The notes below the pieces were generated by a model. It did no database searches and was not told where the DNA came from. It saw only the letters and a program-made list of their open reading frames with translations. A stretch of 64,000 nucleotides of DNA, taken from assembly GCA_965204745.1 (NCBI GenBank), contig OZ242010.1, positions 480,001 to 544,000 on the forward strand, in the 5' to 3' direction. How positions within the stretch are numbered: the first letter of the stretch is position 1; every line of letters starts with the position of its first letter. Below, one piece after another: positions 20,636-35,290 of the stretch. The position numbers and the translations under genes are program-made. Origin of the DNA: Candidatus Latescibacterota bacterium (GTDB lineage Bacteria > Latescibacterota > UBA2968).

Positions 20636-22046
20636 GGGTCGTCGCGTCGTACTTTGCGGATTCGTAAAGCTGCCGCAAGGGGCTGAGCAACATCAGCAAA
20701 ACCGATTGGCGGTCCGTCATAATCTCTGCCGTGCCCTTCATGCCAAACATCAGGGGTTTTTCGTCGCCTTTGACGCGGATGGTGTGTTCTTCCAATGCCA
20801 CGATGGCTTTGAAGATAGGCCCGACCGTTTCATCGAGAATCGCATCCGGCGCAATGTGTTTGAGCCACCCGCGCTTGATGCCGAAATCCTGAAACGCGTA
20901 CGCGTCGTATTTCAACTTGACCACCTGCCCGGGTTTGAGCAAGCCCACGTCTTTGTTCAAAACCATCAATTCCGCGACGATCGGCGCAGACGCGGGCACC
21001 AGCATCCCCAAGGGCTGTCCCTTGTTGATCACCTGCCCGACCGCGTTCACCATCACCTGCGTGACAATGCCCGATTCTTGCGCCAAAATCAGGTCCGATT
21101 CGGCATCTAACACGCGATCGACGCGCTTGCGCGCCTGCTCCAATCGCAGTTGGGCGGTCTCATAAGCGTGTTGGATCTGCGCTGTCTCGCGCTCGTGGGC
21201 GAGGCGCGCTTCCGTAATTTGACGCTTGAGGTCTTGAACCGCCATTTCGTTTTTGTAAATCTCGGACATGCGGTTCGGCAGTGCGGCCAGCGCGCTGAGG
21301 TATTGCACGCGCGCGCGATCCATGTCTGAACGGCTGATCAAGTTGCGTTCAAACAGGGTCTTTTGTTGCAAAAACGCCTGTTTGAGATGGTCGATTTCCG
21401 CTTGGCGAAAGCCGATCTGCGCTTGCAACCCGGCGTCCGGCGCGCTGTTTTGAGACGCATCGCCCACGTCGTTGCGATAATCTTTTAGGGCGTTTTGGTG
21501 CGCGGCCATAAACCGCTGCAAAACGGACAGGCGTCGTTCGAGCGCGGCGATGGTTTCCCGGTTCAATTTGGCCTTTTGCGGCAGCGCGTTTTTGAGATCG
21601 TACTCGGCTTGCTCAAACGCGATCTCGGCTTGTTCCCGCTCCCGCAATTCGCCCCAGGTCTCCCATGATTTCAGCTTGAACAACACCTGACCCGCTGCGA
21701 TGTGATCGCCTTCGGCAATGCCGATCCATTCGATTTCCCCGCCGCGCTTGGCCTGCACGGTTTTCACCTGCCCCAGCGGCACCAGCCGAAACGGCGCGGA
21801 CGCCACCACATCCACCTCGCCCAACGATGCCCACGCGAGGGCAATGCCGATAAACAGCAGGACGATGTAGAGCAATGCCCGCCCCCAAAAGGGCCGCAAC
21901 GACCCCATAAACGCACGCGCCTCTTCGGACGCGTCGTCGCGCTCAACGCGCAAAGTTCTGGCCTCGGCCTCTACCAGTGGTTCTGCCATCGCGTGCCTTT
22001 TGTGCCTTTTGTGGCTAAATTCGGCCTCTACCAGTGGTTCTGCCAT
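20595..22046 (-). CDS. HlyD-family membrane fusion protein
   Basis: Single TM, long coiled coil, NKDVGL.KPGQ.VKLKYDAY.FQDFG, GMKGTAEI. Confidence 0.93.
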   Translation of the reverse strand: MAEPLVEAEFSHKRHKRHAMAEPLVEAEARTLRVERDDASEEARAFMGSLRPFWGRALLYIVLLFIGIALAWASLGEVDVVASAPFRLVPLGQVKTVQAKRGGEIEWIGIAEGDHIAAGQVLFKLKSWETWGELREREQAEIAFEQAEYDLKNALPQKAKLNRETIAALERRLSVLQRFMAAHQNALKDYRNDVGDASQNSAPDAGLQAQIGFRQAEIDHLKQAFLQQKTLFERNLISRSDMDRARVQYLSALAALPNRMSEIYKNEMAVQDLKRQITEARLAHERETAQIQHAYETAQLRLEQARKRVDRVLDAESDLILAQESGIVTQVMVNAVGQVINKGQPLGMLVPASAPIVAELMVLNKDVGLLKPGQVVKLKYDAYAFQDFGIKRGWLKHIAPDAILDETVGPIFKAIVALEEHTIRVKGDEKPLMFGMKGTAEIMTDRQSVLLMLLSPLRQLYESAKYDATTHEESGDATRRIGN

Positions 22047-22048: not shown

Positions 22049-22074
22049 TGCGTCCCCCTTCAAAGCGTTGCCCG

Positions 22075-25000
22075 TCAAACCCCTTGCAACTGTTGCCCGC
22101 ACATGTGCGCGTACAACCCCTGTTGCACCATCAACTCGCCGTGCGTGCCCATCTCCACGAGATGGCCCTTGTCCAGCACCACAATGGCATCGGCGTCTCG
22201 CACGGTGCTCAAGCGGTGGGCGATGATCAAGGCGGTGCGGTCTTCCAAGAGCAGATCCAAATTCGCCCGAATCGCCTGTTCCGAATCCGTGTCCAGCGCG
22301 TTGGTGGCTTCGTCAAAAATCAAAATTTTCGGATCGCGGTACAATGCCCGCGCTATCGCGATCCGCTGCCGTTGCCCGCCGGACAACCCGACGCCCTGTT
22401 CGCCCACTTTTGTCTCGTAGCCCAAGGGCATATCGGTCACAAAGTCTTGCACGCAGGCCAGTTTTGCAACTTCCAGGATGCGTTCCATGTCCGCGTCTTC
22501 CCGCCCAACGGCGATGTTTTCCGCGATGCTGCCGCTGAACAAAAACGGCTCTTGCATGACCATGCCCACCTGTTGCCGCAACCAATGGGGGTCGAAGTCT
22601 CGCGCGTCCATCCCGTCGAGCAACACGCGCCCGTCTGAGGGATCGAACAGGCGCGGCACGAGTTTGACCAACGTGGTTTTGCCCGCGCCGCTACGTCCCA
22701 CGATAGCGACTTTTTGCCCCGGTTCGACCGCGAGGTCGATGTTGTTCAACACGTAGGGTTCGTCAGACCCGACGCCGTACCGAAAAAATACCGAGTCGAA
22801 AACCAAGCGGCCTCGCACCTGCTTCAAGCGCAAGCCGTGCCCTTGTTGCCGCGCGTCTTCCATCTGCGTGTCGTACACGTCATTGAGCCTGTCCAAGGCG
22901 ACGCGCGCTTCTTGCACTTGCGGCCAGATGCTGATCAACCCCATGATGGGGCCCATCACATTGCCGATGAGGGCATTAAACGCCATCAACTGCCCCACGG
23001 ACAAATTGCCCTCGATGACCAATGACGCGCCATACCACAAAATCACCGTGTTGCTCAACAAGTTGATCAGGCCCCCGCCCGCGCCGAACAGCATCTGCAT
23101 TTTTAGGCGTTGAAATCCGATCTGAATTTCCCGCGTGAACTTGCCCTCCCAATGCCACCGGGTCGCGCGCTCGACCGCCTCGGCTTTGACCACGTCGATG
23201 CCGCGCAGGGAATCGATCAAGACCGAGGATTGTTCGGCGCGCGCCAAAAATGCGCGTTGGCTAAAGGATTTCAAAATGGGCGTGTAGATCAGGGTGAGGC
23301 CCACGGACAGGGGCACAAAAATCAGCATGACGAGCGTCAACTCGGCGTTGTAGTAAAACATCAATCCGAGATAGACGAATAACATCACAAAGTCCAAAAC
23401 CGCGGAAACGGTCGTGCCGGTCAACAGGCGTTGGATCGTGGCGTTTTCCTTGAATCGCGTGGTCAAATCGCCGGTGCGCCGAAGGGCGAAAAACCGCATG
23501 GACAGGGCCAATAAATGGCGGTAAAAACGCGACAACATCGACAGGCTCAAGCGCGCACTCACATAGCCGATCAAGTACGTCCGCAGGGTTGTCGTGCCCA
23601 TTTGAAACAGCGCGACGACGACCATGCCCACCAACATCAAGTTCAACAAGTCCTCGTCGTGATGGACCAACACTTGATCCACAATGGTCTGCATAAAAAT
23701 AGGCGACGCCAGCCCAAACAAACTGAGCACCAGCGACGCCAACAAGACTTCGATTAAAATGCCGGTATGGGGTTTGACCAATGGGAAGAACCGCTTGAAG
23801 GACGAGCGGGACGGCTCGTTTTGTGCCACGCGATCCGTGTATTCCAACAACAGCGCGGCGTTTGTCCAGCCCTTTTCAAATTCCGCACGCGACAATTTGC
23901 GAATGCCCACGCCCGGGTCCGCGATTTTCACCTCGTTTTTCCCGATCTGATACAAGACCACAAAGTGATTGCCTTCCCAGTGGAGGATGGCCGGGAGGTC
24001 TGTTTGCATGAGGGCTTCGTACCCGGTGCGAACCCCGTGCGTGACAAAGCCCAGGGTTTCAGCGGCCTCGGCCAACGCGGCCATGGACGTGCCATACCGC
24101 GAGACATTGGACATGTCGCGCAATCGGTTCAAGCCGATGGGCATTTTGTAGTACTTGCAGATCATGCCCAAACACGCGGCCCCGCAATCGGATTGATCGT
24201 GTTGCTTCAAAAATGGAAAGCGAAGCGCGGTGGGCGCGGTGGGTTGGCGTTCCTCTGTTCTGATGGCGACCACATTGGCGCGCGCGTCTCGTTTGTCAAC
24301 GCTTGGCTCGGCTCGCGCGCTCGGCCCATCGCCGAACGTCGCGCTTTGGGTTTGTCGCGGCAGAGGCGATGCCCCTGTCTCGCGTTCCGAGCTCGCTAGC
24401 CGCCCCATCTGCAAGGCCGCGCCGAGTGCGGGCATCCCGTCGTTGAGTTTGTCTAAATCGCTTTTATCGATAGAAAAGAGCACGCAATCGCTTTGGCAAC
24501 GGATCGCGGGTGGTCGCTCGCTCGGCAAATTCTCATCGCCAAAAAAATCCCCGGCGCGCAATATCGCGGTGGCGCCCTTTGCCGATGCGATCTCGACCTG
24601 ACCGCGGGCGATCAAGTAAAATCGCTCGTTTGGCTCCGCGACCAATTCGCCCTTTGCCACCTCTTCGCGCTTTAAGCGGGCGAACAGCTCCCGCAATACC
24701 TCAGCCGAGACATTCCCTTTCAAAAATCGCGTGAAATTCCGATACGCGATCTGCGCGACCTGATCCTCGAGGTACGCTTTTAATCCCGCTTCTTTTTTGA
24801 GCACCTTGAAGAACCGATCCTTTGGCACGCGCAAGAGGTCCGAGTCCTCAACCGCCCGCACGGTCGCCCGATGCCCCTGCCCGGTCAATAACGCGCCTTC
24901 GCCAAAGTGGTCGCCCGCGTATAAATAGCCCACGGTTGCAGAACCGCCCTCCGCGTCTCGCTTGATGACCCGCAACCGCCCAGCTTGCACCACGTAAAAG

Positions 25001-25125
25001 GCGTCCCCGGCTTGCCCCTGCTCAAAGATGACACTGCCAAATGGCGCGGGCCGAACCGCGTTTTCCGCAAAGAAGCGCGATAGGTTTCTAAATGCGACCT
25101 CGGGTGCTGTTTGTGTGGTGTTCAT
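22075..25125 (-). CDS. Peptidase-containing ABC transporter (cNMP-binding domains + C39 peptidase + TMD + NBD)
   Basis: GDHFGEGALL cNMP motif; QSDCGAACL/HFVV/IADP C39 triad; [25 protein letters not shown]. Confidence 0.95.
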   Translation of the reverse strand: MNTTQTAPEVAFRNLSRFFAENAVRPAPFGSVIFEQGQAGDAFYVVQAGRLRVIKRDAEGGSATVGYLYAGDHFGEGALLTGQGHRATVRAVEDSDLLRVPKDRFFKVLKKEAGLKAYLEDQVAQIAYRNFTRFLKGNVSAEVLRELFARLKREEVAKGELVAEPNERFYLIARGQVEIASAKGATAILRAGDFFGDENLPSERPPAIRCQSDCVLFSIDKSDLDKLNDGMPALGAALQMGRLASSERETGASPLPRQTQSATFGDGPSARAEPSVDKRDARANVVAIRTEERQPTAPTALRFPFLKQHDQSDCGAACLGMICKYYKMPIGLNRLRDMSNVSRYGTSMAALAEAAETLGFVTHGVRTGYEALMQTDLPAILHWEGNHFVVLYQIGKNEVKIADPGVGIRKLSRAEFEKGWTNAALLLEYTDRVAQNEPSRSSFKRFFPLVKPHTGILIEVLLASLVLSLFGLASPIFMQTIVDQVLVHHDEDLLNLMLVGMVVVALFQMGTTTLRTYLIGYVSARLSLSMLSRFYRHLLALSMRFFALRRTGDLTTRFKENATIQRLLTGTTVSAVLDFVMLFVYLGLMFYYNAELTLVMLIFVPLSVGLTLIYTPILKSFSQRAFLARAEQSSVLIDSLRGIDVVKAEAVERATRWHWEGKFTREIQIGFQRLKMQMLFGAGGGLINLLSNTVILWYGASLVIEGNLSVGQLMAFNALIGNVMGPIMGLISIWPQVQEARVALDRLNDVYDTQMEDARQQGHGLRLKQVRGRLVFDSVFFRYGVGSDEPYVLNNIDLAVEPGQKVAIVGRSGAGKTTLVKLVPRLFDPSDGRVLLDGMDARDFDPHWLRQQVGMVMQEPFLFSGSIAENIAVGREDADMERILEVAKLACVQDFVTDMPLGYETKVGEQGVGLSGGQRQRIAIARALYRDPKILIFDEATNALDTDSEQAIRANLDLLLEDRTALIIAHRLSTVRDADAIVVLDKGHLVEMGTHGELMVQQGLYAHMCGQQLQGV

Positions 25126-25146: not shown

Positions 25147-26223
25147 TTACATCCCTTCTAAAACCGCAATGCCCCTTTCGAGCACCGGATCGCCCATAGC
25201 GGAGGAATCGGAAAAGCTGACGGCGATATCGGGGGGAACACCGATGCCTTCGTAGCTTATCCTATCCGCGGAAACGAATTTTGACACCGTGAGTTGATAC
25301 ACCCACCCATTGGGCAGCTGACCTTGCTTGATACTTCCAAGGGCACCGGCAGTGGAACTGCCGATGACCGTGACATGGGGGAATTGTCGCAGAGCCAAAA
25401 CAAAATGTTCCGCCGCACTCGCGGTATTTTTTCCGACGAGCAAGACGAGGGGGTTGGTGTATTGCCGCGCTCCTGACGGCCCGATTTGCAGTTCAAAAAG
25501 GGGCGCAGAGTCGGATCGATTGACGCGATATTGGTATTGTGCATAGCCATAGACGTGTGTTTTATCGACAAAACGCGCCATGACAGATCGCGCGTTTCCC
25601 GTCACACCACCCGAGTTCTGTCTCAGATCGATGATGATGCCATCAGTATGGCTCAACTGCGCTAAGACAGCGTCGATATCCCCTCCCCAGTCTTTATCTT
25701 TCACCGATCCGGTTGAAAATCCAGGGATAGAGATATACCCAATGCGATCTCGCATCGCGCCGTACTGAAGCCCTCCCTGCGTGTGTATATCGTCGATATA
25801 ATTTCTGACGCGGTCAAAATCGAACGACTCATCCTCCCGATTGCCAAACTCAATTGTGAACGTCGTATCTCTTTCAAACCCGCTCGGATCAAAAGTTAAA
25901 GGCTCATCCCGACGCCCCGATACAAAACGACCAAATGGCGTGACGAGACCGACATGCCGGTCGTTGAGGTATTCTAACATCAGGGCACAGATTGCAAAAA
26001 GTTCCAGTTGGGTGGTTTGCGCCGTGACGAAAGGACGCTGAACCCTGTAAAGCGCGTTCCAATCGACATTCTTGACCTCAAACAATGCGTAAAAGTCATT
26101 AAATTCTCGCCAGAAAACTTCGAAGTTGTGTTCGGGTGACGAGTCGAGATCACCACCTACAATTGACTTTCCGCAGGAAAAATGAAAACCACAGACGACG
26201 ACGATAAATAGCAGACGTAACAT
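25147..26223 (-). CDS. S41-family peptidase, probable lipoprotein
   Basis: Signal ending HFSC; IIDLRQNSGG, TASAAEHF, EGIGVPPD. Confidence 0.9.
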   Translation of the reverse strand: MLRLLFIVVVCGFHFSCGKSIVGGDLDSSPEHNFEVFWREFNDFYALFEVKNVDWNALYRVQRPFVTAQTTQLELFAICALMLEYLNDRHVGLVTPFGRFVSGRRDEPLTFDPSGFERDTTFTIEFGNREDESFDFDRVRNYIDDIHTQGGLQYGAMRDRIGYISIPGFSTGSVKDKDWGGDIDAVLAQLSHTDGIIIDLRQNSGGVTGNARSVMARFVDKTHVYGYAQYQYRVNRSDSAPLFELQIGPSGARQYTNPLVLLVGKNTASAAEHFVLALRQFPHVTVIGSSTAGALGSIKQGQLPNGWVYQLTVSKFVSADRISYEGIGVPPDIAVSFSDSSAMGDPVLERGIAVLEGM

Positions 26224-26224
26224 G

Positions 26225-27013
26225 TTATTTTACCTTGAGAGCGAAGCCCATCAGCAGATTATGCGTGAACATTGCGGCCGTGCGTTCATATCTTCTCGCA
26301 CGCTGGAAATCCATGCGATAGACCGCGTAAAACGCGATAGATGAGGACAGCCGACTGGCGTAGTGAACGCCGATATTGAAATGCAGAAAGCGGTTCCAGA
26401 AGGCCAGATCACCAGCCAGTAAATTCGCAAAACCTTCCCGGCCGGATACAATACCAGATGCGTGTGGCAGATAATACGATACGAGGGTACTGCCCAGGTA
26501 TGCTCTGAGATGGTGTCGCATGTTAAAATGATAGTCACCCAAAATTGCAAGGCGCAGGCTGAAATCCATATCCCCAATGAGCTGGGCATGTACTGGCGGA
26601 TGGATGTATTCTTTAACGTAAAGTCCCACTCCCATGCCCCCCATAATGCCCAACCTCATTTTGTCGTAGGCCGCCAAATAGCGCCCGTATAATTCTTCAA
26701 CCTGAAAATACACGATCTTGACACTTGTCTCGGAAGCAGAGAGGTTGCCACGCCCAAATGCGATAAACTCGGAGCGGTAGCTTTTATTGCCTTGTTTTAG
26801 AGAGAGCCAAGCAACGGATGGCGTCTGGCCTTCGTACCGCAGGTAGGATCCCAATTCATCTTTTAAGTAAAATTGCGACAGCCCCGCCATGATCCCATAC
26901 CATTGCTCGCTCGCTTTCTCCTTTTTGGTGGCCTCATTCTCTTTGGGCATTTCTTCACCCAAGGCATCCATTCCCCCGAGCACCAAACACAAAACGACCA
27001 GTATTTTCATCAT
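26225..27013 (-). CDS. Exported hypothetical protein, possible outer-membrane beta-barrel
   Basis: Signal peptide and alternating aromatic/hydrophobic strands; abuts the S41 gene. Confidence 0.6.
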   Translation of the reverse strand: MMKILVVLCLVLGGMDALGEEMPKENEATKKEKASEQWYGIMAGLSQFYLKDELGSYLRYEGQTPSVAWLSLKQGNKSYRSEFIAFGRGNLSASETSVKIVYFQVEELYGRYLAAYDKMRLGIMGGMGVGLYVKEYIHPPVHAQLIGDMDFSLRLAILGDYHFNMRHHLRAYLGSTLVSYYLPHASGIVSGREGFANLLAGDLAFWNRFLHFNIGVHYASRLSSSIAFYAVYRMDFQRARRYERTAAMFTHNLLMGFALKVK

Positions 27014-27051
27014 TTTTCACCTGTCAGATATCTTGGTTCATGTATGACGCC

Positions 27052-27927
27052 TCATTTCGCGGTGCTGAACGCCGGAAGCAAAAATACCTGTTGCTCTCGT
27101 CGCTGTGGTATCCACGCCCGCCATTCTCGGTCTAATGCCTCGAGATCCTGTGGAATCGCGCGTTTGATGATTTCTAAGTTGTTGTTGTGAAGCAACTTAA
27201 ACCTGATCATATTCCATATACTCGGCGTAGCGCCAGCGGCTCGATTCATCTCCCAGATTATATTCTTGAGTATGCCTTGTCCCTTTTCTGAGGACATGAG
27301 AAAATAGACGAATAACCATCCGAAGGTCCGCATTTTAGCTTCTTGTTTTTTGTACTGGGATTTGGACAGTGAAAAGAAATCAGCCAATGACATCAGTTGC
27401 CCTTCTTTCAGCCACTCTTGGCATGCGCGGTTGCGATCAGGGGCAAAGCCGATCACCGCTTTATCATCATAGACCTCCATCCTTTCGAAATACTCTGCAA
27501 TGCCTTCTTGCAACCATTTGGGGTGCCACAAATGCTCATGCAAAATCGCGTGACTCGCTTCGTGATACACCCTCCTGATGAAATACACCCTCCCGACGGA
27601 ACAACACTCACAATGATTCAAGATCGCGACCTCTTTTTTTTTTACGGAATAATACGCCGGAGCAGAAGTCGAACCACCTCGATATTCGGTATAATCGCTA
27701 TGGCTACCAAATATCTGAAACTTGATCTGAAAACTTTTAGATACCTCGAGATCAAAGACCTTTTTATAGATCCCGATCATCATTTTAATCCCGCGTTCTA
27801 TGGCTTCCCTGTCCGTATCGTCAACTTCGCAGTTGTGCAGATTCAACTGGCAGATATCCTGCGCTGTATCCTGCGCCATCGCCAACTGCGCGCTCAATAG
27901 GATGAGAGACAGAAGTGCAAATTTCAT
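27052..27927 (-). CDS. Secreted gluzincin-like metallopeptidase (DUF1570/peptidase MA-like)
   Basis: Signal peptide; YHEASHAIL...PKWLQEGIAEYFE. Confidence 0.8.
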   Translation of the reverse strand: MKFALLSLILLSAQLAMAQDTAQDICQLNLHNCEVDDTDREAIERGIKMMIGIYKKVFDLEVSKSFQIKFQIFGSHSDYTEYRGGSTSAPAYYSVKKKEVAILNHCECCSVGRVYFIRRVYHEASHAILHEHLWHPKWLQEGIAEYFERMEVYDDKAVIGFAPDRNRACQEWLKEGQLMSLADFFSLSKSQYKKQEAKMRTFGWLFVYFLMSSEKGQGILKNIIWEMNRAAGATPSIWNMIRFKLLHNNNLEIIKRAIPQDLEALDREWRAWIPQRREQQVFLLPAFSTAK

Positions 27928-28218: not shown

Positions 28219-28382
28219 CTACATTGACCAAGGGTGAACATCTACAACTACATCTGGCAGTGGTGGCAAGTCGATACCAAATTCCTCACTGATTAGATCA
28301 GCGAGTATATCATAGATATCATGCCAGACAACGCATCCACTGGGGCCGATTGCCCAGGGGTTGATACGATTCGCTTCGTCAT
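28219..28382 (-). pseudogene. Frameshifted copy of precursor peptide C (precursor B) with an internal leader deletion
   Basis: Starts MTKRIVSTPGQSAPV after a GGAGGTG RBS; a shifted frame reads GCVVWHDIYDILADLISEEFGIDLPPLPDVVVDVHPWSM*. Confidence 0.85.
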
Positions 28383-28448: not shown

Positions 28449-28694
28449 CTACATTGGCCAAGGCCACGGGTTAAAGGGCCAAGGCCACGGGTTAAAGACG
28501 TCCTCCCAATCTTCCAAAATATCTTCCAGTGGCGAGTCAAATTCCTCGCTGGTATCATCATCTGGAAACGGGTAACATCCACCCGCCCCAGCGACCTGAG
28601 CGATTTGGTGCTCGGTCAGATCAGTCGTTTCAATCGGCAGATTGACCGTAGCTGTGACCGAGTGCTCAGGGTCCGATACGATTCGCCTTGTCAT
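28449..28694 (-). CDS. Double-glycine-type precursor peptide A (81 aa)
   Basis: AAGGAGGTG RBS; 37-aa leader ending TTDLTEHQIAQVAGA aligns with precursor C; core GGCYPFPDDD...FNPWPWPFNPWPWPM. Confidence 0.85.
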   Translation of the reverse strand: MTRRIVSDPEHSVTATVNLPIETTDLTEHQIAQVAGAGGCYPFPDDDTSEEFDSPLEDILEDWEDVFNPWPWPFNPWPWPM

Positions 28695-28803: not shown

Positions 28804-29328
28804 TCACCTCTGCTGAATCAAAACGCCATTTTCCGACAGCAGGGACAAAACCTTTTCTGGATTTCTCGACGCGAGGACCACCTGTTTCACTTTCTTTTTT
28901 TGCTTGAGCTTGTAGCGGGTCAGGTAGTCTTCGTTCAATCGCAACCTGATCAACATTGCCCCTGGAAGCCAGCGGCCTTCTCCCAACACAGGCGGCCCTG
29001 CGGCATTGAGGGCTAAACGCATCGCAGGACTTTTGCGATCAACTATGAACTTCTCCGCATACGCGATTGTGCTCAATAAAATCTGTTCCTTGCCGGTAAA
29101 GTGATAGCCAAACGCGATTGTCGTATCGTCTATCTGAATTGTGAAACGCCAATACATCGAGAACACCACGCAAATCAGCACAAGCGCAGTAACCATAACC
29201 AAATGGGTGACAAATTGCATGCCAATCAAATAAACAAAGGCCGTTGCCATCGCTATCATCGCTACTGCGAAAGACAGGATGACCGCCCAGGGCGTTATCG
29301 TTTCGTAATAGACAATATTTCGGTTCAT
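28804..29328 (-). CDS. Hypothetical membrane protein (2 TM + soluble domain), possible immunity factor
   Basis: Two hydrophobic helices; overlaps the stop of the CAAX protease gene. Confidence 0.7.
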   Translation of the reverse strand: MNRNIVYYETITPWAVILSFAVAMIAMATAFVYLIGMQFVTHLVMVTALVLICVVFSMYWRFTIQIDDTTIAFGYHFTGKEQILLSTIAYAEKFIVDRKSPAMRLALNAAGPPVLGEGRWLPGAMLIRLRLNEDYLTRYKLKQKKKVKQVVLASRNPEKVLSLLSENGVLIQQR

Positions 29329-30136
29329 TTGGGATGTCCAATGAAGTCATGAACTGTATCCTTACGCGCTTCTACTTCTTTCTGCTTCGCCACCCGGTAA
29401 AACCACCACAGCCCAAGCGTAGCCAATATTACGCCACATAGATTGAGGACTACAACATTTTCCCAAAAATTTGGTACTTCAAAAAATAAAAATGTTACTT
29501 CCAAAAAATTGTTCAGCATGTGCCCCAAAATTGCAGGCCACAAAGATCCCGTTTGGATGACCCACCAGGCAAAGACAATTCCAAATATAAAGGCGACTGG
29601 AAATTGCCATGGATTCAGATGCATTAGACCAAACAGAATGGCCGACCAAACAATCGCCCGATTTTGTGTGTAGTGTGCCGATAGACCTCTCAAGATAATG
29701 CCTCTACAAAGTACCTCTTCAACAAAAGGTCCTATCAGGACGAAAAAAAAAATAAGGATAACAGATCAGATATCTTATTGGAGTCAACTAAGGCATCATA
29801 GGCACGCTGAAATTTTTCAGGTAATGGAATCACATGTTCCACCATTGCGGCTATTTGAAAATTAATGAGCCATAGCCCAAAGATAGATAAACCAACGGAA
29901 AACCATATACGCCAATCCTGGTCTATGTTTAGCAATATATCTTTCCAAGTTCGATTCGTCCGATGCGAAACATAGCACAAAATCAAAATGAGCCCTGTCA
30001 ACATCAAAAGGCCCCTCAGGTAATTATTCTTCATTAACGACTTGTCAATATTACTCGTCAGTATCCCCAAACCTATTGTAATAAGAAGCCATAATATCAG
30101 CAACCAAATTGACTGCTTCAAGTTTGGATACGTCAT
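29325..30136 (-). pseudogene. CPBP/Abi (CAAX protease) intramembrane metalloprotease, frameshifted at a T10 run
   Basis: 5' ORF 29735-30136; the shifted frame carries PFVEEVLCRG, FGLMH and GHMLNN; A10 at 29743-29752 on the plus strand. Confidence 0.85.
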
Positions 30137-30185: not shown

Positions 30186-30230
30186 TTTTTGGGATAGGAG
30201 CGAACATTCTAAAATGCCCCTATCCCAAAA
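30186..30230 (-). terminator. Hairpin after precursor D; a similar copy lies at ~28066-28110
   Basis: ttttgggataggagc...gcccctatcccaaaa. Confidence 0.55.
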
Positions 30231-30258: not shown

Positions 30259-30513
30259 CTAATCGTCGCAGCAACAGCAACAGCAACAACTCGGTTCTTC
30301 TTCTTCTTCTAGGACCTCTGAAACAAATTCATAAACCTCGTACGCGATCCACAAGAGAAGTCCGATCCTCCCTTTTGGCTTCGGCTTCTTCCCACCATAC
30401 GTTTCTGCCATGTGGCGACTTTCGAGCATTTCCTCTTGCGGTTGCAACGGATTGCAGGCGACAAACACTTGATCTGTATCTGTCGTCATTCGGTTTGCCA
30501 ATGTTTGAGTCAT
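30259..30513 (-). CDS. Double-glycine-type precursor peptide D with a hepta-cysteine tail (84 aa)
   Basis: GGAGG RBS; leader ends EMLESRHMAETYGG; core KKPKPKGRIGLLLWIAYEVYEFVSEVLEEEEEPSCCCCCCCDD. Confidence 0.8.
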   Translation of the reverse strand: MTQTLANRMTTDTDQVFVACNPLQPQEEMLESRHMAETYGGKKPKPKGRIGLLLWIAYEVYEFVSEVLEEEEEPSCCCCCCCDD

Positions 30514-30729
30514 GGTATCCTCCAAAAAAGTAAATGAATGGAAACTTACAGCAAGAAAATTGTTTGCCCCTGAATACCCTCTTCGTGAGGGCCTTATTCA
30601 GGGATGAGTTGTGAAATGTCAGGTATGGCCCCAACATCTAAGAAATGTGAGAATTGTGCAGAATAGCCAACACGTCTTCCCACCGCGAACTCACCGCAGT
30701 AGCGGTTTCTGATTGACCTCGGTTTTGAA

Positions 30730-30954
30730 CTACATTGACCAAGGGTGAACATCTACAACTACATCTGGCAGTGGTGGCAAGTCGATACCAAATTCCTCAC
30801 TGATTAGATCAGCGAGTCTATCATAGAGATAAGGCCAGACACATCCCCCAGAGACCAGAGCGGTTTGATGCGCGTTCAGGTCAGTCGTTTTCATCGGCAG
30901 GTTGATCGCAACTGGGGCCGATTGCCCAGGGGTTGATACGATTCGTCTCGTCAT
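30730..30954 (-). CDS. Double-glycine-type precursor peptide C (74 aa)
   Basis: AAGGAGGTG RBS; leader ends TTDLNAHQTALVSGG; core CVWPYLYDRLADLISEEFGIDLPPLPDVVVDVHPWSM. Confidence 0.85.
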   Translation of the reverse strand: MTRRIVSTPGQSAPVAINLPMKTTDLNAHQTALVSGGCVWPYLYDRLADLISEEFGIDLPPLPDVVVDVHPWSM

Positions 30955-31010: not shown

Positions 31011-32414
31011 TCAGGGGGCCATGAGCATCTCGCTGAGGTGGCGGATTTTGCGAAGCGTTTTGTGGGCTGTGGCTTTCGTATCGCACAGGCCCATCATGAT
31101 GGCTTCGACTTCGTTTGGATGCAGGTATTGCAACAAGTGGAGGCCCAAGCCTTCGAGCAGGGCCATGTCTTGTCCCAAAAATGGGATGCGCGGCAATGGG
31201 CCTTGCTTGCTGCCCAGATGGTTAAAGCCCTTGGCCACGCTTTTCAGCTTGCTGGCCGAGTCGCAGCTTTGGGCAAAGCTGACGGTAATTGGAATGGGGC
31301 ATGCGGGGGCGTCTCGTTTGACCCGCAGATTTTCAAACAGGGCGATGAGTTGCTTTGCCGTGCGATCCCATGAAAACGCGGTTGCGCGTTGACGCGCCTT
31401 CTCGCCTAGTGCCACGCGCTCGGTCTTGATCTTCAACAGATCGCGCACCGCATCCGAAATCGCTTCGGGGGCGATGTACCCCGTCATATTCAGGGGCTCG
31501 TCTTCAAATCGCTCGATCTCGATCAACCGCCCGCAATCCCCGAGCAACTCGGGCGCGCCCGCAAAATTGGTCGCCACGACCGGCAACCCACACGCCATGC
31601 CCTCCAGCACGGTTGAGGGACACGATTCATAGGAATACACGGACAGGGCGCACAGCACATCGAGCATGTTGTAATACAGCGGCATCTGCGGATAGGGTTG
31701 CGCGCCGAGGAAGACCACATTGGGGGGATGTGTCACAGACGCGAACTGCTTGCCGATTACCGCGAACAACACATTGGGATTCAGATCTGCCATCCGCAAA
31801 AACGGATACGCGCCCTTGCCCGGTTCAAACCGCCCGCAAAAGCCCACCACGGGCATTTCCAAAAAGCGTTGATCGCCCGTCTTATCCGCGATCTCTTTTC
31901 GCGCTTGCAACTTGTCTGTCGGCGCGAACACCTCGGCATCGATCCCATTGGTTATGGGGTGCAAATACGACGGGTCATACACCAATTCGCCCAGTTCTTC
32001 GGCGACATAAGCCGACTTGGGAGACAGCGCGTCCCAAGGCCGCAACAGGGAATAACAATTTAGAACTTTGTCCACGAAATCGCGGTTGCGTCCAAACGAA
32101 CACGACAGCCGAATCACGATGGGCGCGGGACACACATGCCGGAAAAACGCGAGATCATCTGCTTTGGGTTCAAACATCGCGACACCGTCAAAATTCTGCC
32201 GCGCAAACCATTGCCGAGCCGACTCAATCGTCTCGAATGCCTGGCGGATCCCATGCAAATTCGGGCCGTAATCCATGGCCTCAGACGCTGGCACATACAC
32301 CTCGCAACAGCGCGACAACGCCTCGATGTGGTTGTATCCCGAAAGGGACGCGCCACTGTTTGATTGCACGACTTTCTCTGGGTCGTGATACGGATGGGGG
32401 ACGTAGATCTTCAT
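31011..32414 (-). CDS. GT4-family glycosyltransferase with a C-terminal extension
   Basis: GFCGRFEPGKG, ESCPSTVLEGMACGLPVVAT (EX7E), FSWDRTA. Confidence 0.9.
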   Translation of the reverse strand: MKIYVPHPYHDPEKVVQSNSGASLSGYNHIEALSRCCEVYVPASEAMDYGPNLHGIRQAFETIESARQWFARQNFDGVAMFEPKADDLAFFRHVCPAPIVIRLSCSFGRNRDFVDKVLNCYSLLRPWDALSPKSAYVAEELGELVYDPSYLHPITNGIDAEVFAPTDKLQARKEIADKTGDQRFLEMPVVGFCGRFEPGKGAYPFLRMADLNPNVLFAVIGKQFASVTHPPNVVFLGAQPYPQMPLYYNMLDVLCALSVYSYESCPSTVLEGMACGLPVVATNFAGAPELLGDCGRLIEIERFEDEPLNMTGYIAPEAISDAVRDLLKIKTERVALGEKARQRATAFSWDRTAKQLIALFENLRVKRDAPACPIPITVSFAQSCDSASKLKSVAKGFNHLGSKQGPLPRIPFLGQDMALLEGLGLHLLQYLHPNEVEAIMMGLCDTKATAHKTLRKIRHLSEMLMAP

Positions 32415-32449
32415 TGTGAACCTCAGGGGAGTAATGGGGGATCAAAGTG

Positions 32450-34960
32450 TCAGTTGCGGATCGCCGATTCCATAAATATTCGCGTTTGCGCCGCGCCATC
32501 GAGGGCGAGCGGGTGGTTGGGCACCGTGCGGTTGAGCGCGTCTCGAATGGCGGTTGCCATCCCGGTTGCAGACAGGTGATCTGGGTGGATCACCTGCGCG
32601 AGGCCCAAATCCATCAACCGCCGGGCGCGAAATTCCTGATCGTCCATCGCAATGCTCGGCACGAAAATGGCCGGGGGTTGCGTCTCGAGCACGTTCATAC
32701 ACGTATTGTAGCCCGCGCGGCTGATCGACAAATCCGCATGGTTCATCCAAGGCAAAAAGTGGGACGTGAAGCGTTCCAAGCGAAACGGCCCGTCCGCGCA
32801 CGAGTCGCGCAGGGCGTCAAAATGCGCGTCTTCGATAAACGCGCCAGCAAAAATCACCATCTCGCGGCCGTCGAGCGCGCCTTCTTTGTCCAACCGTTTC
32901 CACGCTTCAATGCACGGCGCCGCGAGCGCAATGCCCTCGGCTCCGCCGCCCGCGCTGACCAAAACGTACCGGTCAGGGGCGCGCTCGGGCCGCGAATCGC
33001 CTTCTAGCTTTTCGGAAACGAATCCCGTATAGACCACGGGAATGCCGATGTCCTCTACCCATGGAAAGTGATCTTCCAAGCGCGACAACTGCGGGTCGCC
33101 GTGGACCAACACCGCGTCAAAATACAGATTCAAGATCGGCACGACCTCTTCGTAATAACGCCGATTAAAAGACAGGTGCTCGTGATGGATTCCGCCAAAG
33201 GGCACGGAGTAAAACCGCACGGCATCGCCATCGCGGCGCGGCGCAAACTCGGTGGCCGGCTGCAACCCATCGCCCTTTGCCCGCGTGGGAATATCGCGCA
33301 GGGAACACACCACTTGCGCGCTCGGATCGAGCTGGTTGCACTTGGCGATGGTATTGAGAATTTCGCTTTTGAGGGACCAGCGGCTAAAGGGGAAGAACTC
33401 GACGCACAACACGTCTGGGCGAATGCGTTCCATCGCCTCAAAAAGCCCGATCTGCCGCTCGTACATCGCGGCCTGCAAATCCCCTCGGCCATCCGCCGGC
33501 TCGAGGCCGTGCGCGCCTGCACGGAGCGCGCGCAAGGGAATGCGCGCAATGCGTTCATCGAGGTCCACACCAGGAACCGGGCGCCCGCCGTCGATGAAAT
33601 ACACATCGCAGGTTTTGACCAGTTCATCGACGATTTGCCGGTTGCGGAAGTGATGCCCCACGCCGATGAGGTGTTGGCTGTAAAACGCGATGCGTTTGCG
33701 CGGCGGTTCGACAGGCGCGGTGGATTTTTGCGGCGGCCGCGCCGAAAGCGCGGTTTCGTAGATCCCGCGGTAGCGCGCCACGACGCGCGTCCAGGCGCGC
33801 TCTGCGTGAACCCATTGGCGCGCCTGTTGCCCCAGGCGCGCTCGCAGTGCGGGTTGTGCGATGAGTTCCGCGCAGGTCCGCGTGAGACTTTTGACATCGT
33901 CGGCCACAAAAACGCGCCCGGTTTCGCCATCTGCCACGCCTTCTTTGAGTGCGCCCACGTCGCTGACAATAACGGCTTTTTGCATCGCCATGGCTTCGTA
34001 GGGCTTCATCGGCGCGACCAGTTCGGTCACGCGACTGCGCGTGCGCGGAATGACAAACACATCGATCAATGTGTAATACGCCGCGACTTCGGCGTGGGGG
34101 ATTTGTCCGGTAAAGATCGCGGCGTCTTGGAGGCCGCACGCCTGGGCTTCGCGCTGCAAGTTCGGCAAGTCCCTGCCGCCGCCCACGATCAGCACTTTGA
34201 GGTTGGGGTGTCGCCCCTTGAGTCGTTCGCATGAGCGCAACAGGAGATGCAAGCCTTCGAGGGAGCGCACGAGGCCCACATAGCCGAGGACGACATCGGT
34301 CGGTTCGATGCCCAAGCGCGCGCCGAGGTCATGCGCGCGGGGTTGCGGCGCGGCGAACTCGGCGACGCCGTTGGGCACCACGCCGATTTTGTGTTCGTCA
34401 ATGCCCTCGCGGACACATTCGGCTTTGAGGACTTCGGACAATGTCACCACCGCGTCGGCGCGTTGCATGGCTTGGACGTGCTGCGCGTGTTGCGCCTGAT
34501 ACGCTTCTGAATCGGGCGACAGCATGCCTTGCGCGACGCCGCTGTCGTGCCACAAGCCCCGCACTTCGTACACGACGGGCAGGCCGTAGTGATGGCCCAT
34601 GTCGATGGCGATTTGCGCGTTTCGGCCCGGCGACGCCGCGTGCAACAGGTCGGGTTTTTCCGTTTCGATGGCCCGCGCAACGCGCTTGCAAAATTGACGC
34701 GCCTGCCCCTCACCATAGATTTGGGGAATCGCGGGTTCGCCCAGTCGCTGTGCCATCCGCGCCATGTGTTCTTCGGTGGTATTTCGCAAGTAGGGCACGC
34801 CGTCGATATAGTCATGCCCAGCTGCGGGCGCGCCCCATCGGGTGAGCACGACCGGGTCAAAGCCAAGTGCTTTTTGCGCGTTGACGATGTACTGACTCCG
34901 CAGACTGTAGCCGCTTTGGCGGTGTGGCAACGAAATATCCAAGATGTGTAGTATTTTCAT
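32450..34960 (-). CDS. Two-domain glycosyltransferase fusion (GT4 + GT1/GT28-like)
   Basis: N-terminal KILHILDISLP..SGY, YEVRGLW, PMKPYEAMAM; C-terminal YSQHLIGVGH, VSAGGG, SRAGYNT, DQEFRA. Confidence 0.9.
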   Translation of the reverse strand: MKILHILDISLPHRQSGYSLRSQYIVNAQKALGFDPVVLTRWGAPAAGHDYIDGVPYLRNTTEEHMARMAQRLGEPAIPQIYGEGQARQFCKRVARAIETEKPDLLHAASPGRNAQIAIDMGHHYGLPVVYEVRGLWHDSGVAQGMLSPDSEAYQAQHAQHVQAMQRADAVVTLSEVLKAECVREGIDEHKIGVVPNGVAEFAAPQPRAHDLGARLGIEPTDVVLGYVGLVRSLEGLHLLLRSCERLKGRHPNLKVLIVGGGRDLPNLQREAQACGLQDAAIFTGQIPHAEVAAYYTLIDVFVIPRTRSRVTELVAPMKPYEAMAMQKAVIVSDVGALKEGVADGETGRVFVADDVKSLTRTCAELIAQPALRARLGQQARQWVHAERAWTRVVARYRGIYETALSARPPQKSTAPVEPPRKRIAFYSQHLIGVGHHFRNRQIVDELVKTCDVYFIDGGRPVPGVDLDERIARIPLRALRAGAHGLEPADGRGDLQAAMYERQIGLFEAMERIRPDVLCVEFFPFSRWSLKSEILNTIAKCNQLDPSAQVVCSLRDIPTRAKGDGLQPATEFAPRRDGDAVRFYSVPFGGIHHEHLSFNRRYYEEVVPILNLYFDAVLVHGDPQLSRLEDHFPWVEDIGIPVVYTGFVSEKLEGDSRPERAPDRYVLVSAGGGAEGIALAAPCIEAWKRLDKEGALDGREMVIFAGAFIEDAHFDALRDSCADGPFRLERFTSHFLPWMNHADLSISRAGYNTCMNVLETQPPAIFVPSIAMDDQEFRARRLMDLGLAQVIHPDHLSATGMATAIRDALNRTVPNHPLALDGAAQTRIFMESAIRN

Positions 34961-35038
34961 CGCGCTATCTCTGCGTTGACCTGCGTTATCGCTGCGTTCA
35001 CTGCGTCGGGAAGTTTCTGTGCTTGCGCGCAATAGACT

Positions 35039-35054
35039 TGCAATTGCCATGCCA
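35039..35054 (-). promoter_or_regulatory. Sigma54 (-24/-12) promoter
   Basis: Minus strand TGGCATG-GCAA-TTGCA versus consensus TGGCACG-N4-TTGC, ~80 nt upstream of the GT fusion ATG. Confidence 0.8.
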
Positions 35055-35290
35055 CTTTTGCACAACCGCAAAAAAAAACGCCTCAGAATGTTCTAAGGCG
35101 CGAGAAAACAAGGAGATAGGTGCGATACCCGCAACCACACGCTCGGCGCGTTGCACAACCGTACCGATCACTTTTTTCACCCCCGGCTATGGTGCTAACT
35201 CGTGAACGCGCTGTATCCGTCCGTAACACCGTGTAAAATCAATGGGTTGCGCGTGTGTGCAATTCGTTCTATCGCAATGCCCAAAAATGA

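What the first reader, a model, noticed from the sequence alone, without database searches (positions are those of the whole stretch)
30259..30513. Precursor D: basic-hydrophobic-acidic core ending in seven consecutive cysteines
Seen: after YGG the core reads KKPKPKGR / IGLLLWIAYEVYEFVSEVL / EEEEEPS / CCCCCCC / DD, with the Cys run built from mixed TGT/TGC codons. Established: poly-Cys runs occur in streptolysin-S-type precursors that need YcaO cyclodehydratases, and none is encoded here. Inference: the tail could be an S-glycosylation array, a metal-binding tag or a cross-linking handle on a membrane-associating helix.
Basis: partly seen in the sequence, partly recalled or inferred. Interest (0 to 1): 0.75.

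Follow-up and report, generated by a model that had tools for sequence, protein, structure and literature searches.

The report
Cysteine-tailed secreted peptide, bacteriocin-like cassette
This is a real small gene for an exported peptide that ends in seven cysteines, one of a rare family in sponge-associated Latescibacterota that looks like a two-peptide bacterial toxin with its own protection gene rather than a chemically modified natural product.

Summary
Window 30259..30513 (-) encodes an 84-aa peptide: a 41-aa leader ending in GG, then KKPKPKGR, a predicted helix, EEEEEPS, CCCCCCC and DD.

The 7-Cys run is the longest in any frame of the 5.48-Mb genome. It is unchanged in contigs of three sequencing runs from three studies.

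The peptide belongs to a rare, unnamed leader family. The family has 36 clusters among 1.84 billion proteins and occurs in 31 of 168 Latescibacterota genomes, all in two families of one order.

Cys-rich C-terminal tails recur in this family: 17 of 24 homologues have them, and their Cys lie only in the last 16 residues. The uninterrupted run of seven is the extreme case.

All 9 Cys-tail genes examined sit in the same cassette. A second GG-leader peptide lies upstream, a CPBP (Rce1-like) or DUF3267 membrane-protease gene lies next downstream, and a cNMP-C39-ABC exporter, HlyD and a PPIase lie in the locus.

No enzyme known to modify Cys tracks the tail:
- The weak YcaO gene is genus-wide and 257 kb away, and no YcaO was found in the other family's Cys-tail genomes.
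- The neighbouring glycosyltransferase GT1 flanks loci whatever the cargo and was not found in 5 of 5 Cys-tail genomes of that family.
- No MNIO gene was found.

Best reading: an unmodified, class-IIb-like two-peptide bacteriocin cassette. The function of the tail (disulfide or metal cluster) is inferred, not shown.

The parts
30259..30513 (-). Precursor D gene, 84 aa plus stop. Leader residues 1-41 are at 30391-30513 and core residues 42-84 at 30262-30390.
   Evidence: homologues
30268..30288 (-). Seven Cys codons, TGT TGC TGT TGC TGT TGC TGC, followed by GAC GAT TAG.
   Evidence: unchanged in contigs of X1, X2 and X4
30519..30523 (-). GGAGG ribosome-binding site, 5 nt upstream of the ATG.
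   Evidence: read from the sequence
30730..30954 (-). Partner ('type-1') GG-leader peptide, 74 aa: MTRRIVS...VSGG | CVWPYLYDRLADLISEEFGIDLPPLPDVVVDVHPWSM (net charge -6).
   Evidence: An equivalent partner lies upstream of all 9 Cys-tail peptides examined.
30187..30230 (-). Stable RNA hairpin between precursor D and the CPBP gene (15-bp stem). No U-tract follows it on this strand.
   Evidence: -30.6 kcal/mol, z -3.0; the sequence is conserved in L004
29325..30136 (-). CPBP / Rce1-like intramembrane protease gene (bacteriocin 'Abi' immunity type). It is split into 133-aa and 122-aa ORFs by a 1-nt deletion at 29741/29742, next to a T10 run (29743-29752).
   Evidence: The X4 contig covering 29257-29809 shows no gap against the window.
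28804..29328 (-). 174-aa membrane protein with no family match. Homologues lie in two related loci (L046, L056).
28449..28694 (-). Second type-1 GG-leader peptide, with a very acidic, Trp/Pro-rich core (net charge -12).
28293..28382 (-). Truncated remnant of a third type-1 peptide gene (MTKRIVSTPGQSAPV...).
22075..25125 (-). Exporter (PCAT): cNMP-binding domains, C39 peptidase, ABC membrane and ATPase domains, 1016 aa.
20595..22046 (-). HlyD-family periplasmic adaptor.
19826..20635 (-). PPIC-type peptidyl-prolyl isomerase, 69% identical to the gene that follows HlyD in the f2 loci.
25147..27927 (-). S41 peptidase (25147-26223), unknown 262-aa protein (26225-27013) and HExxH 291-aa secreted protein (27052-27927). 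They lie between the exporter and the peptides. S41 and the 262-aa protein were found only here and in L004.
31011..35071 (-). GT1 (31011-32414) and the GT4/GT28 fusion (32450-35071). They are syntenic flank genes and are not specific to Cys-tail cargo.

Best explanation
Precursor D is a genuine substrate of the neighbouring peptidase-containing ABC exporter (PCAT). The 41-residue leader would be cut after Gly40-Gly41 by the C39 domain during export through the cNMP-C39-ABC / HlyD system. That releases a 43-residue anionic peptide (net charge -5): a basic N-terminus, one helix that is hydrophobic at the front with an acidic face further on, a poly-Glu linker and a flexible Cys7-Asp-Asp tail.

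It is the second component of a two-peptide, ribosomally made and probably enzymatically unmodified cassette of the bacteriocin kind (class IIb-like). The first component is the acidic amphipathic peptide encoded 217 bp upstream. The CPBP/Abi-type membrane protease encoded 122 bp downstream is the cognate self-protection (or processing) protein.

The Cys-rich tail is a heritable feature of one cargo class of this leader family. After export into an oxidising, metal-containing medium it most likely acts as a thiol cluster. It would form disulfides or metal-thiolate bridges that tie helices to each other, to the partner peptide (whose mature N-terminus here is Cys) or to a surface.

Shown: the gene, the family, the cassette architecture, and the lack of linkage to YcaO, to the neighbouring GT1 and to MNIO enzymes. 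Inferred: cleavage, export, toxicity and immunity, and the chemistry of the tail.

My sub-confidences: real coding gene 0.95; GG-leader PCAT cargo 0.85; two-peptide toxin/immunity cassette 0.55; tail acting as a disulfide/metal cluster 0.35.
For: Gene and family:
- The ORF has a GGAGG site 5 nt upstream.
- 24 database homologues share a near-invariant leader. M1, T2, Q3, A6, R8, T10, F17, C20, L23, E27, L30, G40 and G41 are invariant in 25 of 25 sequences.
- No Pfam or NCBIfam model matches the peptide.
- Only 36 clusters at E<=1e-3 were found among 1.84 billion representatives.
- 31 of 168 genomes of the phylum have a match, all in families f1 (17/30) and f2 (13/22).

Selection pattern:
- Between the window and L004 the leader is nearly identical, even at synonymous sites (pS 0.08).
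- The last 27 codons of the core have pS 0.53-0.59 and pN 0.25-0.30. A conserved leader with a diverging cargo is the pattern of a leader/cargo cassette.

Tail as a family trait:
- 17 of 24 homologues have 2 or more Cys in the last 16 residues and none elsewhere in the core.
- Variants are CCCCCCCDD, RCRCCCCDD, SCCCKK, CCSCCCCKR, CCRCSCKR, CCSCSCKK, NCNCDSDCCN and CDCNVNITVNVNCG.

Cassette:
- All 9 Cys-tail genes (window, L004 x2, L038-L043) have a second GG-leader peptide gene upstream and a CPBP or DUF3267 gene as the next gene downstream.
- The partner cores share an acidic amphipathic motif across both bacterial families.
- A PCAT is present in 25 of 28 loci. PCAT-HlyD-PPIase is conserved between f1 and f2.

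Literature:
- CAAX/Abi proteases are reported as bacteriocin immunity proteins (PMC9298176, abstract).
- A Gram-negative two-protein bacteriocin exported by a type I system is known in Caulobacter (Cdz; PMC5380434, abstract and passages).

Structure: AF2 predicts one helix at residues 49-71 with the leader and tail unstructured, at low confidence (mean pLDDT 56).

Against enzymatic modification: under the rival explanations.
Against: - No activity, cleavage or expression data exist. No run on record as RNA was listed.
- Both peptides are strongly anionic (-5 and -6), whereas classical class II bacteriocins are cationic (recalled). D lacks a GxxxG motif.
- The CPBP gene in this window is frameshifted, and an independent assembly shows the same. 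If it is the only immunity gene, an active toxin would be a problem for the cell, so the cassette here may be decaying or the CPBP may not be the immunity factor. A type-1 gene remnant also points to decay.
- The 41-aa leader is conserved far beyond what I recall a C39 domain needing. That could mean a further leader-binding enzyme.
- CPBP/DUF3267 genes are missing from 7 of 28 loci.
- GT1 keeps its place beside the peptides across two families (64% identity in L049 and L063), so a functional link of the GTs to the locus as a whole is not excluded.
Confidence: 0.55

Rival explanations
1. The peptide is a RiPP precursor whose Cys tail is enzymatically modified. Candidates are azoles made by the distant YcaO-like enzyme, S-glycosylation by the adjacent glycosyltransferases, or another enzyme acting in trans.
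For: - Poly-Cys cores are known from streptolysin-S-type precursors (recalled).
- A YcaO-like ORF exists at C1:766874-767389 (37 bits).
- Two GT genes lie directly upstream on the same strand, and the synteny GT4/28 - GT1 - peptides - exporter holds in 13 of 27 loci, including f2 genera.
- The leader is long and its N-terminal half is highly conserved, as in leaders that are read by modifying enzymes.
- Two SPASM radical-SAM genes exist elsewhere in the genome.
Against: - The YcaO-like gene is 257 kb away, next to a TPR protein and a formylglycine-enzyme-like gene, with no dehydrogenase seen nearby.
- It occurs in 20 of 20 genomes of the genus, including 4 with no match to the peptide family. 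It was not found in the 6 g10 genomes with Cys-tail peptides: G047, G050, G054 and G056 are listed as no match, and G058 and G059 are not among the matches.
- GT1 flanks loci whose peptides have no Cys tail, for example L044, L045, L053 and L056-58. It was not found in 5 of 5 g10 genomes, which are 95-100% complete.
- The GTs are GT4/GT1-type, not the GT2 type of known S-glycosyltransferases (for the type; the GT2 statement is recalled).
- No MNIO gene (PF05114) was found in the genome.
- No YcaO, radical-SAM or lanthipeptide enzyme appeared among the 64 neighbouring proteins scanned.
Confidence: 0.12
2. The peptides are signals or regulators, not toxins. Export would be gated by the cNMP-binding domain of the PCAT, as in HetC, and the CPBP would be a maturation protease, as proposed for SilX, rather than an immunity protein.
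For: - The exporter has the same domain order as HetC (cNMP, C39, ABC). HetC's cNMP domain binds ppGpp in vitro, and HetC is proposed to export a signalling peptide (PMC10986499, abstract and passages).
- The CAAX protease SilX is needed for bacteriocin production and not for immunity in S. anginosus (PMC9298176, abstract).
- The anionic charge of the cores is unusual for membrane-damaging bacteriocins.
- A frameshifted CPBP is tolerated here.
Against: - Cargo is hypervariable behind a constant leader.
- Several different peptides sit in one locus, each followed by its own CPBP/DUF3267 gene: three modules in L004 and up to four such genes in f2 loci. That is the pattern of toxin/immunity diversification, not of a signal with one receptor.
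- No sensor kinase or receptor gene was seen in the 20 window proteins scanned.
Confidence: 0.15
3. In this particular genome the cassette is a decaying remnant. The peptide gene is intact by chance or recent history, and the module no longer works.
For: - The CPBP gene is frameshifted, and this is confirmed in the independent X4 contig.
- A truncated type-1 gene lies at 28293-28382.
- The region is AT-rich (GC 0.43-0.50) against flanks of 0.57-0.62, as in a variable islet.
Against: - Precursor D, its RBS, its partner and the exporter, HlyD and PPIase genes are all intact.
- The only population variant seen in D is one conservative-looking substitution, E69A.
- The frameshift lies beside a T10 run, where I recall that transcriptional slippage can restore the frame in part of the transcripts. 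This was not tested.
Confidence: 0.12

Closest known systems
Class IIb two-peptide bacteriocins with Abi/CPBP immunity genes (plantaricin EF/JK and blp-type loci of Firmicutes)
   Same: - Double-glycine leader.
- Dedicated C39-ABC exporter.
- Two small peptide genes side by side, with a CPBP ('CAAX protease/Abi') gene next to them.
- Several diversified cassettes in one locus.
- No modification enzymes.
   Different: - The host is a diderm candidate phylum.
- The exporter carries cNMP-binding domains and works with HlyD and a PPIase.
- The leader is 41 aa long and matches no Pfam or NCBIfam model.
- Both cores are anionic.
- The core ends in a Cys-rich tail.
- Activity is untested.
CdzC/CdzD contact-dependent two-protein bacteriocin of Caulobacter (PMC5380434)
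   Same: - A Gram-negative host.
- Export by a type I system.
- Two hydrophobic proteins that are both needed.
- Probably unmodified.
- An inner-membrane immunity protein.
   Different: - Cdz proteins are glycine-zipper proteins that form SDS-resistant aggregates.
- Their immunity protein, CdzI, is a small transmembrane protein, not a CPBP.
- They have no Cys tail.
- D itself has no glycine zipper. Some relatives do have GxxxG-like stretches (read).
Streptolysin S / TOMM precursors (SagA)
   Same: A leader followed by a run of consecutive Cys.
   Different: - The defining YcaO cyclodehydratase and dehydrogenase are absent from the cluster and are not linked to the family.
- Here the Cys run is at the extreme C-terminus, after a helix and an acidic linker.
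Class IIb (siderophore-) microcins such as MccE492 (recalled; review PMC10233263 seen only in a search listing)
   Same: - A GG leader, with PCAT plus HlyD-type export in a diderm host.
- An anionic, hydrophobic peptide.
- A low-complexity C-terminal tail that serves as a handle.
- A glycosyltransferase in the neighbourhood.
   Different: - The microcin tail is Ser-rich and carries a glycosylated catecholate made by dedicated genes.
- No such genes are present here.
- The tail here is Cys-rich.
HetC of Nostoc (PMC10986499)
   Same: An exporter with the domain order cNMP-binding, C39, ABC.
   Different: - HetC has no known substrate gene nearby and acts in cell differentiation.
- Here GG-leader peptide genes lie in the same locus as the exporter in 25 of 28 loci.
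Eukaryotic CaaX / Rab CC-CXC tails processed by Rce1, and metallothionein-type Cys clusters (recalled)
   Same: - C-terminal CC, CXC and CCXX patterns.
- The next gene encodes an Rce1-family protease.
   Different: - No prenyltransferase is present in the locus.
- CPBP genes also follow cargo without Cys.
- Metal binding is untested.

Membership tests
Double-glycine-leader cargo of a peptidase-containing ABC transporter (PCAT) | A Gly-Gly cleavage motif at the end of a conserved N-terminal leader. | tested here: met
   G40 and G41 are invariant in 25 of 25 aligned sequences, and the leader is conserved.
Double-glycine-leader cargo of a peptidase-containing ABC transporter (PCAT) | A C39-peptidase ABC transporter and an adaptor encoded in the same locus. 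| tested here: met
   Peptidase_C39 (E 3e-39, profile positions 2-130 of 133) plus ABC_membrane and ABC_tran domains, and HlyD, lie at 20595-25125. A PCAT is present in 25 of 28 related loci.
Double-glycine-leader cargo of a peptidase-containing ABC transporter (PCAT) | The leader is removed during export. | not testable with these tools
   This needs expression and mass spectrometry.
Class IIb two-peptide bacteriocin | Two adjacent small GG-leader peptide genes. | tested here: met
   9 of 9 Cys-tail genes have a second GG-leader peptide gene upstream, and the partner cores share a motif.
Class IIb two-peptide bacteriocin | An adjacent immunity gene, often Abi/CPBP. | tested here: inconclusive
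   A CPBP or DUF3267 gene is the next gene downstream in 9 of 9 cases, but the window's copy is frameshifted. Immunity itself is untested.
Class IIb two-peptide bacteriocin | Cationic peptides with GxxxG helix-helix motifs (feature recalled). | tested here: not met
   D has net charge -5 and no GxxxG motif. The partner has net charge -6.
Class IIb two-peptide bacteriocin | Killing activity that needs both peptides. | not testable with these tools
   This needs a bioassay.
TOMM / streptolysin-S-type azole peptide | A YcaO cyclodehydratase (with a dehydrogenase) in the cluster or co-occurring with the precursor. | tested here: not met
   There is none in the window. The only YcaO-like gene is 257 kb away. 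It is present in 20 of 20 genomes of the genus whether or not they have the peptide family, and none was found in the 6 g10 genomes with Cys tails.
Glycocin (S-glycosylated bacteriocin) | A dedicated SunS-type (GT2) S-glycosyltransferase with the precursor (feature recalled). | tested here: not met
   The neighbouring GTs match PF00534, PF13439 and PF04101, and the nearest solved relatives are MshA/BshA-type. GT1 flanks non-Cys cargo and was not found in 5 of 5 g10 genomes.
MNIO-modified Cys peptides (methanobactin/bufferin type) | An MbnB/DUF692 (PF05114) enzyme. | tested here: not met
   There is no match in the own genome, which is 97.65% complete. The control genome (Caulobacter) matched.
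Cdz-type contact-dependent bacteriocin | Extended glycine-zipper repeats in both proteins. | tested here: not met
   None is present in D or its partner (read).
Metal-thiolate (metallothionein-like) peptide | CC / CxC clusters that bind Zn, Cu or Cd. | not testable with these tools
   The sequence pattern is present. Binding needs metal titration.

The most novel reading that the evidence does not exclude
The tails end in CCxx, CxCxx or CCx (CCCCCCCDD, SCCCKK, CCSCSCKK, DSDCCN). This is the pattern of eukaryotic Rab/CaaX tails, and the next gene encodes an Rce1-family (CPBP) protease.

The boldest reading not excluded is a bacterial pathway of the same logic. The exported helix would be S-lipidated or metal-loaded on its Cys cluster, trimmed by the CPBP, and so fixed to a membrane or cell surface as a contact weapon.

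A softer version is that the poly-Glu/poly-Cys tail is a built-in metal chelator. It would let an anionic peptide assemble into a pore only with Zn or Cu, as in dermcidin, or be taken up as a false metallophore, as in siderophore-microcins.
Probability: 0.05. Interest if true: 0.85.

Novelty: new variant of a known kind. Interest (0 to 1): 0.5.

Why it matters
If the reading is right, an uncultured, sponge-associated candidate phylum runs a diversifying two-peptide toxin/immunity system. The system is built on a leader family that no database model covers. About a third of its cargo clusters carry a Cys-cluster tail, a feature I have not found described for unmodified bacteriocins.

The tail offers a simple, testable question: what does a string of free thiols do on a secreted membrane peptide? 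The options are cross-linking, metal dependence or surface retention.

The work also gives a clean negative. A poly-Cys precursor need not signal a streptolysin-type azole pathway or S-glycosylation.

Tried and rejected
- **Oligomer prediction:** Complex prediction with four copies of the core (residues 42-84, 4-row alignment) plus two Zn scored 0.01 and 0.00. There was no verdict, so this is evidence neither way.
- **RNA runs:** no holder on record as RNA was listed, so expression could not be examined.
- **Metagenome scan:** a scan of JGI metagenome contigs with the family alignment found no relative among 45 pattern matches.
- **Genome-contig scan:** it gave one locus, L004.
- **The search of earlier findings:** searches by place, by sequence and by words returned nothing.
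- **ESM Atlas:** the best score was 0.80, below the level at which a hit means anything. The neighbours included ComC/Bacteriocin_IIc-type and mersacidin-type clusters, which is a lead only.
- **AF2 model:** confidence was low (mean pLDDT 56), so I ran no fold search.
- **Promoter/terminator scan:** 8 promoter-like sites against 4.6 expected, and 4 terminator-like sites against 3.5 expected. Nothing usable.
- **Literature searches:**
  - 'double-glycine / cysteine-rich / CPBP'.
  - 'Latescibacter / bacteriocin'.
  - 'consecutive cysteines / precursor peptide / leader'.
  - 'polycysteine / poly-cysteine / bacteriocin / RiPP'.
  - None listed a paper describing such a peptide. In some searches none of the listed papers held the Cys terms at all, so these are weak searches for absence.
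  - The cyanobacterial bacteriocin mining paper (PMC3140520) does not contain 'cysteine', 'cyclic nucleotide', 'CAAX' or 'unmodified' in its main text.
- **Rejected: the Cys run as a sequencing or repeat artefact.** It has the same length in three runs, and relatives use non-repetitive codons.
- **Rejected: the CPBP frameshift as a long-read error.** The site differs from L004 by a substitution plus a deletion, and the X4 contig agrees with the window.
Full report
**1. The observation**

Window 30259..30513 (minus strand) is an 84-codon ORF with ATG at 30513 and a GGAGG site 5 nt upstream.

The seven Cys codons are TGT TGC TGT TGC TGT TGC TGC. That is a (TGTTGC)x3 repeat plus TGC.

A run of seven Cys occurs nowhere else in any of the six frames of the 5.48-Mb genome. 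The next longest is five, in what looks like a non-coding frame, and Cys makes up 1.4% of long open frames.

Contigs of three runs from three studies carry the run unchanged. X1 and X2 show no difference over 28796/28807-30448. X4 shows one difference, 30308 T>G, which is E69A. The same variant is database protein P0001. One of the best holders may be the sample the window came from, so independence rests mainly on X4.

**2. What it belongs to**

A word-indexed search found 24 homologues. They share an almost invariant 41-residue leader, MTQTLANRMTT..DQVFVACNPLQPQEEML....MAE.hGG. Thirteen positions are invariant in 25 of 25 aligned sequences, including C20 and G40-G41.

Neither Pfam nor NCBIfam has a model that matches the peptide. 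A full HMMER search of 1.84 billion cluster representatives found only 36 at E<=1e-3.

The nearest named genome is a 'Candidatus Latescibacterota' MAG (L004). Within the phylum, 31 of 168 genomes have a match, and all are in two families of one order (f1 17/30, f2 13/22). Runs that hold the stretch are labelled sponge metagenomes.

**3. The tail is a family trait**

In 17 of the 24 homologues the last 16 residues hold two or more Cys, and their cores have no Cys anywhere else. Of the 7 others, six cores have no Cys at all.

The tails differ between the two families:
- f1: CCCCCCCDD, RCRCCCCDD, NSCCSCCNSGCCDCGN, CSCDCDCCN, NCNCDSDCCN and CDCNVNITVNVNCG.
- f2: SCCCKK, CCRCSCKR, CCSCCCCKR, CCSCSCKK, GCCSCSCKP and GCNSCTCNTRPPGRR.

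The common architecture is leader-GG, a hydrophobic helix, E-(L/V/W/F)-(T/V)-S-(E/N/D), an acidic or polar spacer, a Cys cluster and one to three charged or small residues. By my reading of the listed sequences, about 10 of the 31 small representatives have such a tail.

An uninterrupted run of seven is seen only in D, in P0001 and in one peptide of L004. The second L004 copy has RCRCCCC, produced by two TGT>CGT changes at the same length. So homologues do not 'lack the Cys run'; they vary it.

All but one of these cores are anionic, with net charge -2 to -8. AF2 predicts one helix at residues 49-71, with the leader and tail unstructured, at low confidence.

**4. The cassette**

On the minus strand the window reads as follows:
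- GT4/GT28 fusion, then GT1.
- A 'type-1' GG peptide (30730-30954).
- Precursor D.
- A hairpin.
- A CPBP/Rce1-like gene (29325-30136).
- A 174-aa membrane protein.
- A second type-1 peptide (28449-28694) and a type-1 remnant.
- An HExxH protein, an unknown 262-aa protein and an S41 peptidase.
- The cNMP-C39-ABC exporter, HlyD and a PPIC-type PPIase.

The Latescibacterota relative L004 has the same order, with three repeats of [type-1 peptide][MTQTLANR-leader peptide][intact CPBP of 269-301 aa]. Two of the three have Cys tails and one does not.

In six genomes of f2 the Cys-tail gene lies between a type-1-like peptide gene and DUF3267 ('putative zincin') and/or CPBP genes. The same exporter, HlyD and PPIase follow. 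The window's PPIase is 69% identical to the f2 one.

Counting the window, L004 and L038-L043, all 9 Cys-tail genes have a second GG peptide upstream and a CPBP or DUF3267 gene as the next gene downstream. The partner cores share an acidic amphipathic motif, (L/I)(I/A)(A/D)E.I..(Y/E)F, across both families.

Across all 28 loci examined, 25 hold the exporter and 21 hold CPBP and/or DUF3267 genes. These membrane proteins follow cargo with and without Cys.

The leader DNA is nearly identical between the window and L004 (pS 0.08). The C-terminal 27 codons have pS 0.53-0.59 and pN 0.25-0.30, and between the two L004 copies pN is about equal to pS. A constant leader with a diverging cargo fits a cassette system.

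**5. Is the tail enzymatically modified?**

*YcaO.* The window has none. The genome has one weak YcaO-like ORF (37 bits) 257 kb away, beside a TPR gene and a formylglycine-enzyme-like gene. That gene is present in 20 of 20 genomes of the genus, including four without the peptide family (G076, G079, G082, G083). No YcaO was found in the six g10 genomes that carry Cys-tail peptides.

*Glycosyltransferases.* GT1 and the GT4/28 fusion are GT4/GT1-type enzymes (PF00534, PF13439, PF04101). The fusion's best NCBIfam match is a PEP-CTERM-system glycosyltransferase at 1e-100, and GT1's nearest solved relatives are MshA/BshA-like. GT1 flanks the peptide locus in 13 of 27 loci, and the fusion in most of the same ones, whatever the cargo. 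GT1 was not found at E<=1e-10 in 5 of 5 g10 genomes, which are 95-100% complete. The same query did reach f2 loci L049 and L063 at 64% identity.

*Other enzymes.* No MNIO gene was found in the genome. Two SPASM radical-SAM genes lie megabases away.

No enzyme known to modify Cys therefore tracks the tail. What remains open is whether the conserved GT-peptide synteny means anything for the locus as a whole.

**6. Mechanism proposed**

*Shown:* the gene, the leader family, the paired-peptide plus membrane-protease plus PCAT/HlyD/PPIase architecture, and the lack of linkage to the enzyme families tested (YcaO, the neighbouring GT1, MNIO).

*From established knowledge:* C39-ABC transporters cut GG leaders during export (PMC6959990 and PMC7018657, seen in a listing only). 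CAAX/Abi proteases can give bacteriocin immunity or process peptides (PMC9298176, abstract). A two-protein bacteriocin exported by a type I system exists in a Gram-negative bacterium (PMC5380434, abstract and passages). A cNMP-C39-ABC exporter, HetC, binds ppGpp in vitro (PMC10986499, abstract and passages).

*Inferred:* D is cut after G41 and exported. It acts together with the upstream acidic peptide on membranes of competitors, and the CPBP protects the producer. The exported Cys cluster forms disulfides or metal-thiolate bridges that tie helices together. It may also tie D to the partner, whose mature N-terminus in this window is Cys, although the L004 partner has no Cys.

**7. Points against**

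- Both peptides are anionic, and D has no GxxxG motif.
- The window's CPBP is split by a 1-nt deletion at 29741/29742, beside a T10 run. The X4 contig agrees with the window.
- A type-1 remnant shows local decay.
- The long conserved leader hints at another reader protein.
- There are no expression data.

**8. Novelty**

The kind is known: GG-leader peptides with a PCAT and CPBP-type immunity genes. Three things appear new:
- the leader family;
- its restriction to one order of a candidate phylum;
- the Cys-cluster tail as a recurrent cargo feature, with the 7-Cys run as its extreme.

My literature searches listed no description of it. They were keyword searches of an open-access library and cannot prove absence.

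Noticed in passing
window 29741-29752 (-): The CPBP gene is broken by a 1-nt deletion next to a T10 run. The site differs from the relative L004 by a G>T change plus a lost G, and an independent sponge-metagenome contig (X4) agrees with the window. A homopolymer of this length could allow transcriptional slippage to restore the frame (recalled, untested).
   Followed up: partly
window 30187-30230 (-): A stable 15-bp hairpin lies between precursor D and the CPBP gene (-30.6 kcal/mol, z -3.0). Its stem is formed by a U-run and an A-run, and the sequence is conserved in L004. It may set the peptide-to-immunity transcript ratio.
   Followed up: partly
window 31011-35071 (-), and loci L044-L047, L049, L050, L052, L053, L056-L058, L063: GT4/GT28 fusion, then GT1, then GG-leader peptides, then the exporter is a conserved gene order across two bacterial families (GT1 64-92% identical), although the peptides between them are hypervariable. 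GT1 has a C-terminal extension of about 100 aa (residues about 363-467) with no match to a solved structure.
   Followed up: partly
window 19826-20635 (-): A PPIC-type peptidyl-prolyl isomerase directly follows HlyD and is 69% identical to the gene in the same position in f2 loci. PCAT-HlyD-PPIase therefore seems to be one unit. I know of no described role for a PPIase in PCAT export.
   Followed up: partly
window 28449-28694 (-): The second type-1 peptide has an extreme core: net charge -12, ending in NPWPWPFNPWPWPM.
   Followed up: no
window 28293-28382 (-): A truncated third copy of a type-1 peptide gene (MTKRIVSTPGQSAPV...). Contig joints in X1 and X2 (30954 back to 28400) show that the repeated leaders confuse assemblies.
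   Followed up: no
G000:C1:994471-994788 (L002/L006/L061), and the orthologue in L062: An orphan second member of the leader family (120 aa, no Cys tail, core ending GKGYGG). No exporter, CPBP or DUF3267 gene lies within 7 kb.
   Followed up: partly
L038-L043 (f2 loci): DUF3267 'putative zincin' membrane proteins take the place next to the Cys-tail peptide that the CPBP holds in f1. A TMEM260-like GT-C gene lies 2-4 kb upstream on the other strand in 4 of the 4 loci scanned for it, all from one genus.
   Followed up: no
L063 (G060:C76) 6934-7398: A family member whose core starts with (GGK)n and (TGK/TGT)n low-complexity repeats (KGGKGGKGGKGGTTGKTGKTGTTG...), another odd cargo on the same leader.
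   Followed up: no
window 17194-19599 (-): An 801-aa DNA methyltransferase (N6_N4_Mtase) lies in a low-GC stretch (0.47-0.48) just beyond the PPIase.
   Followed up: no
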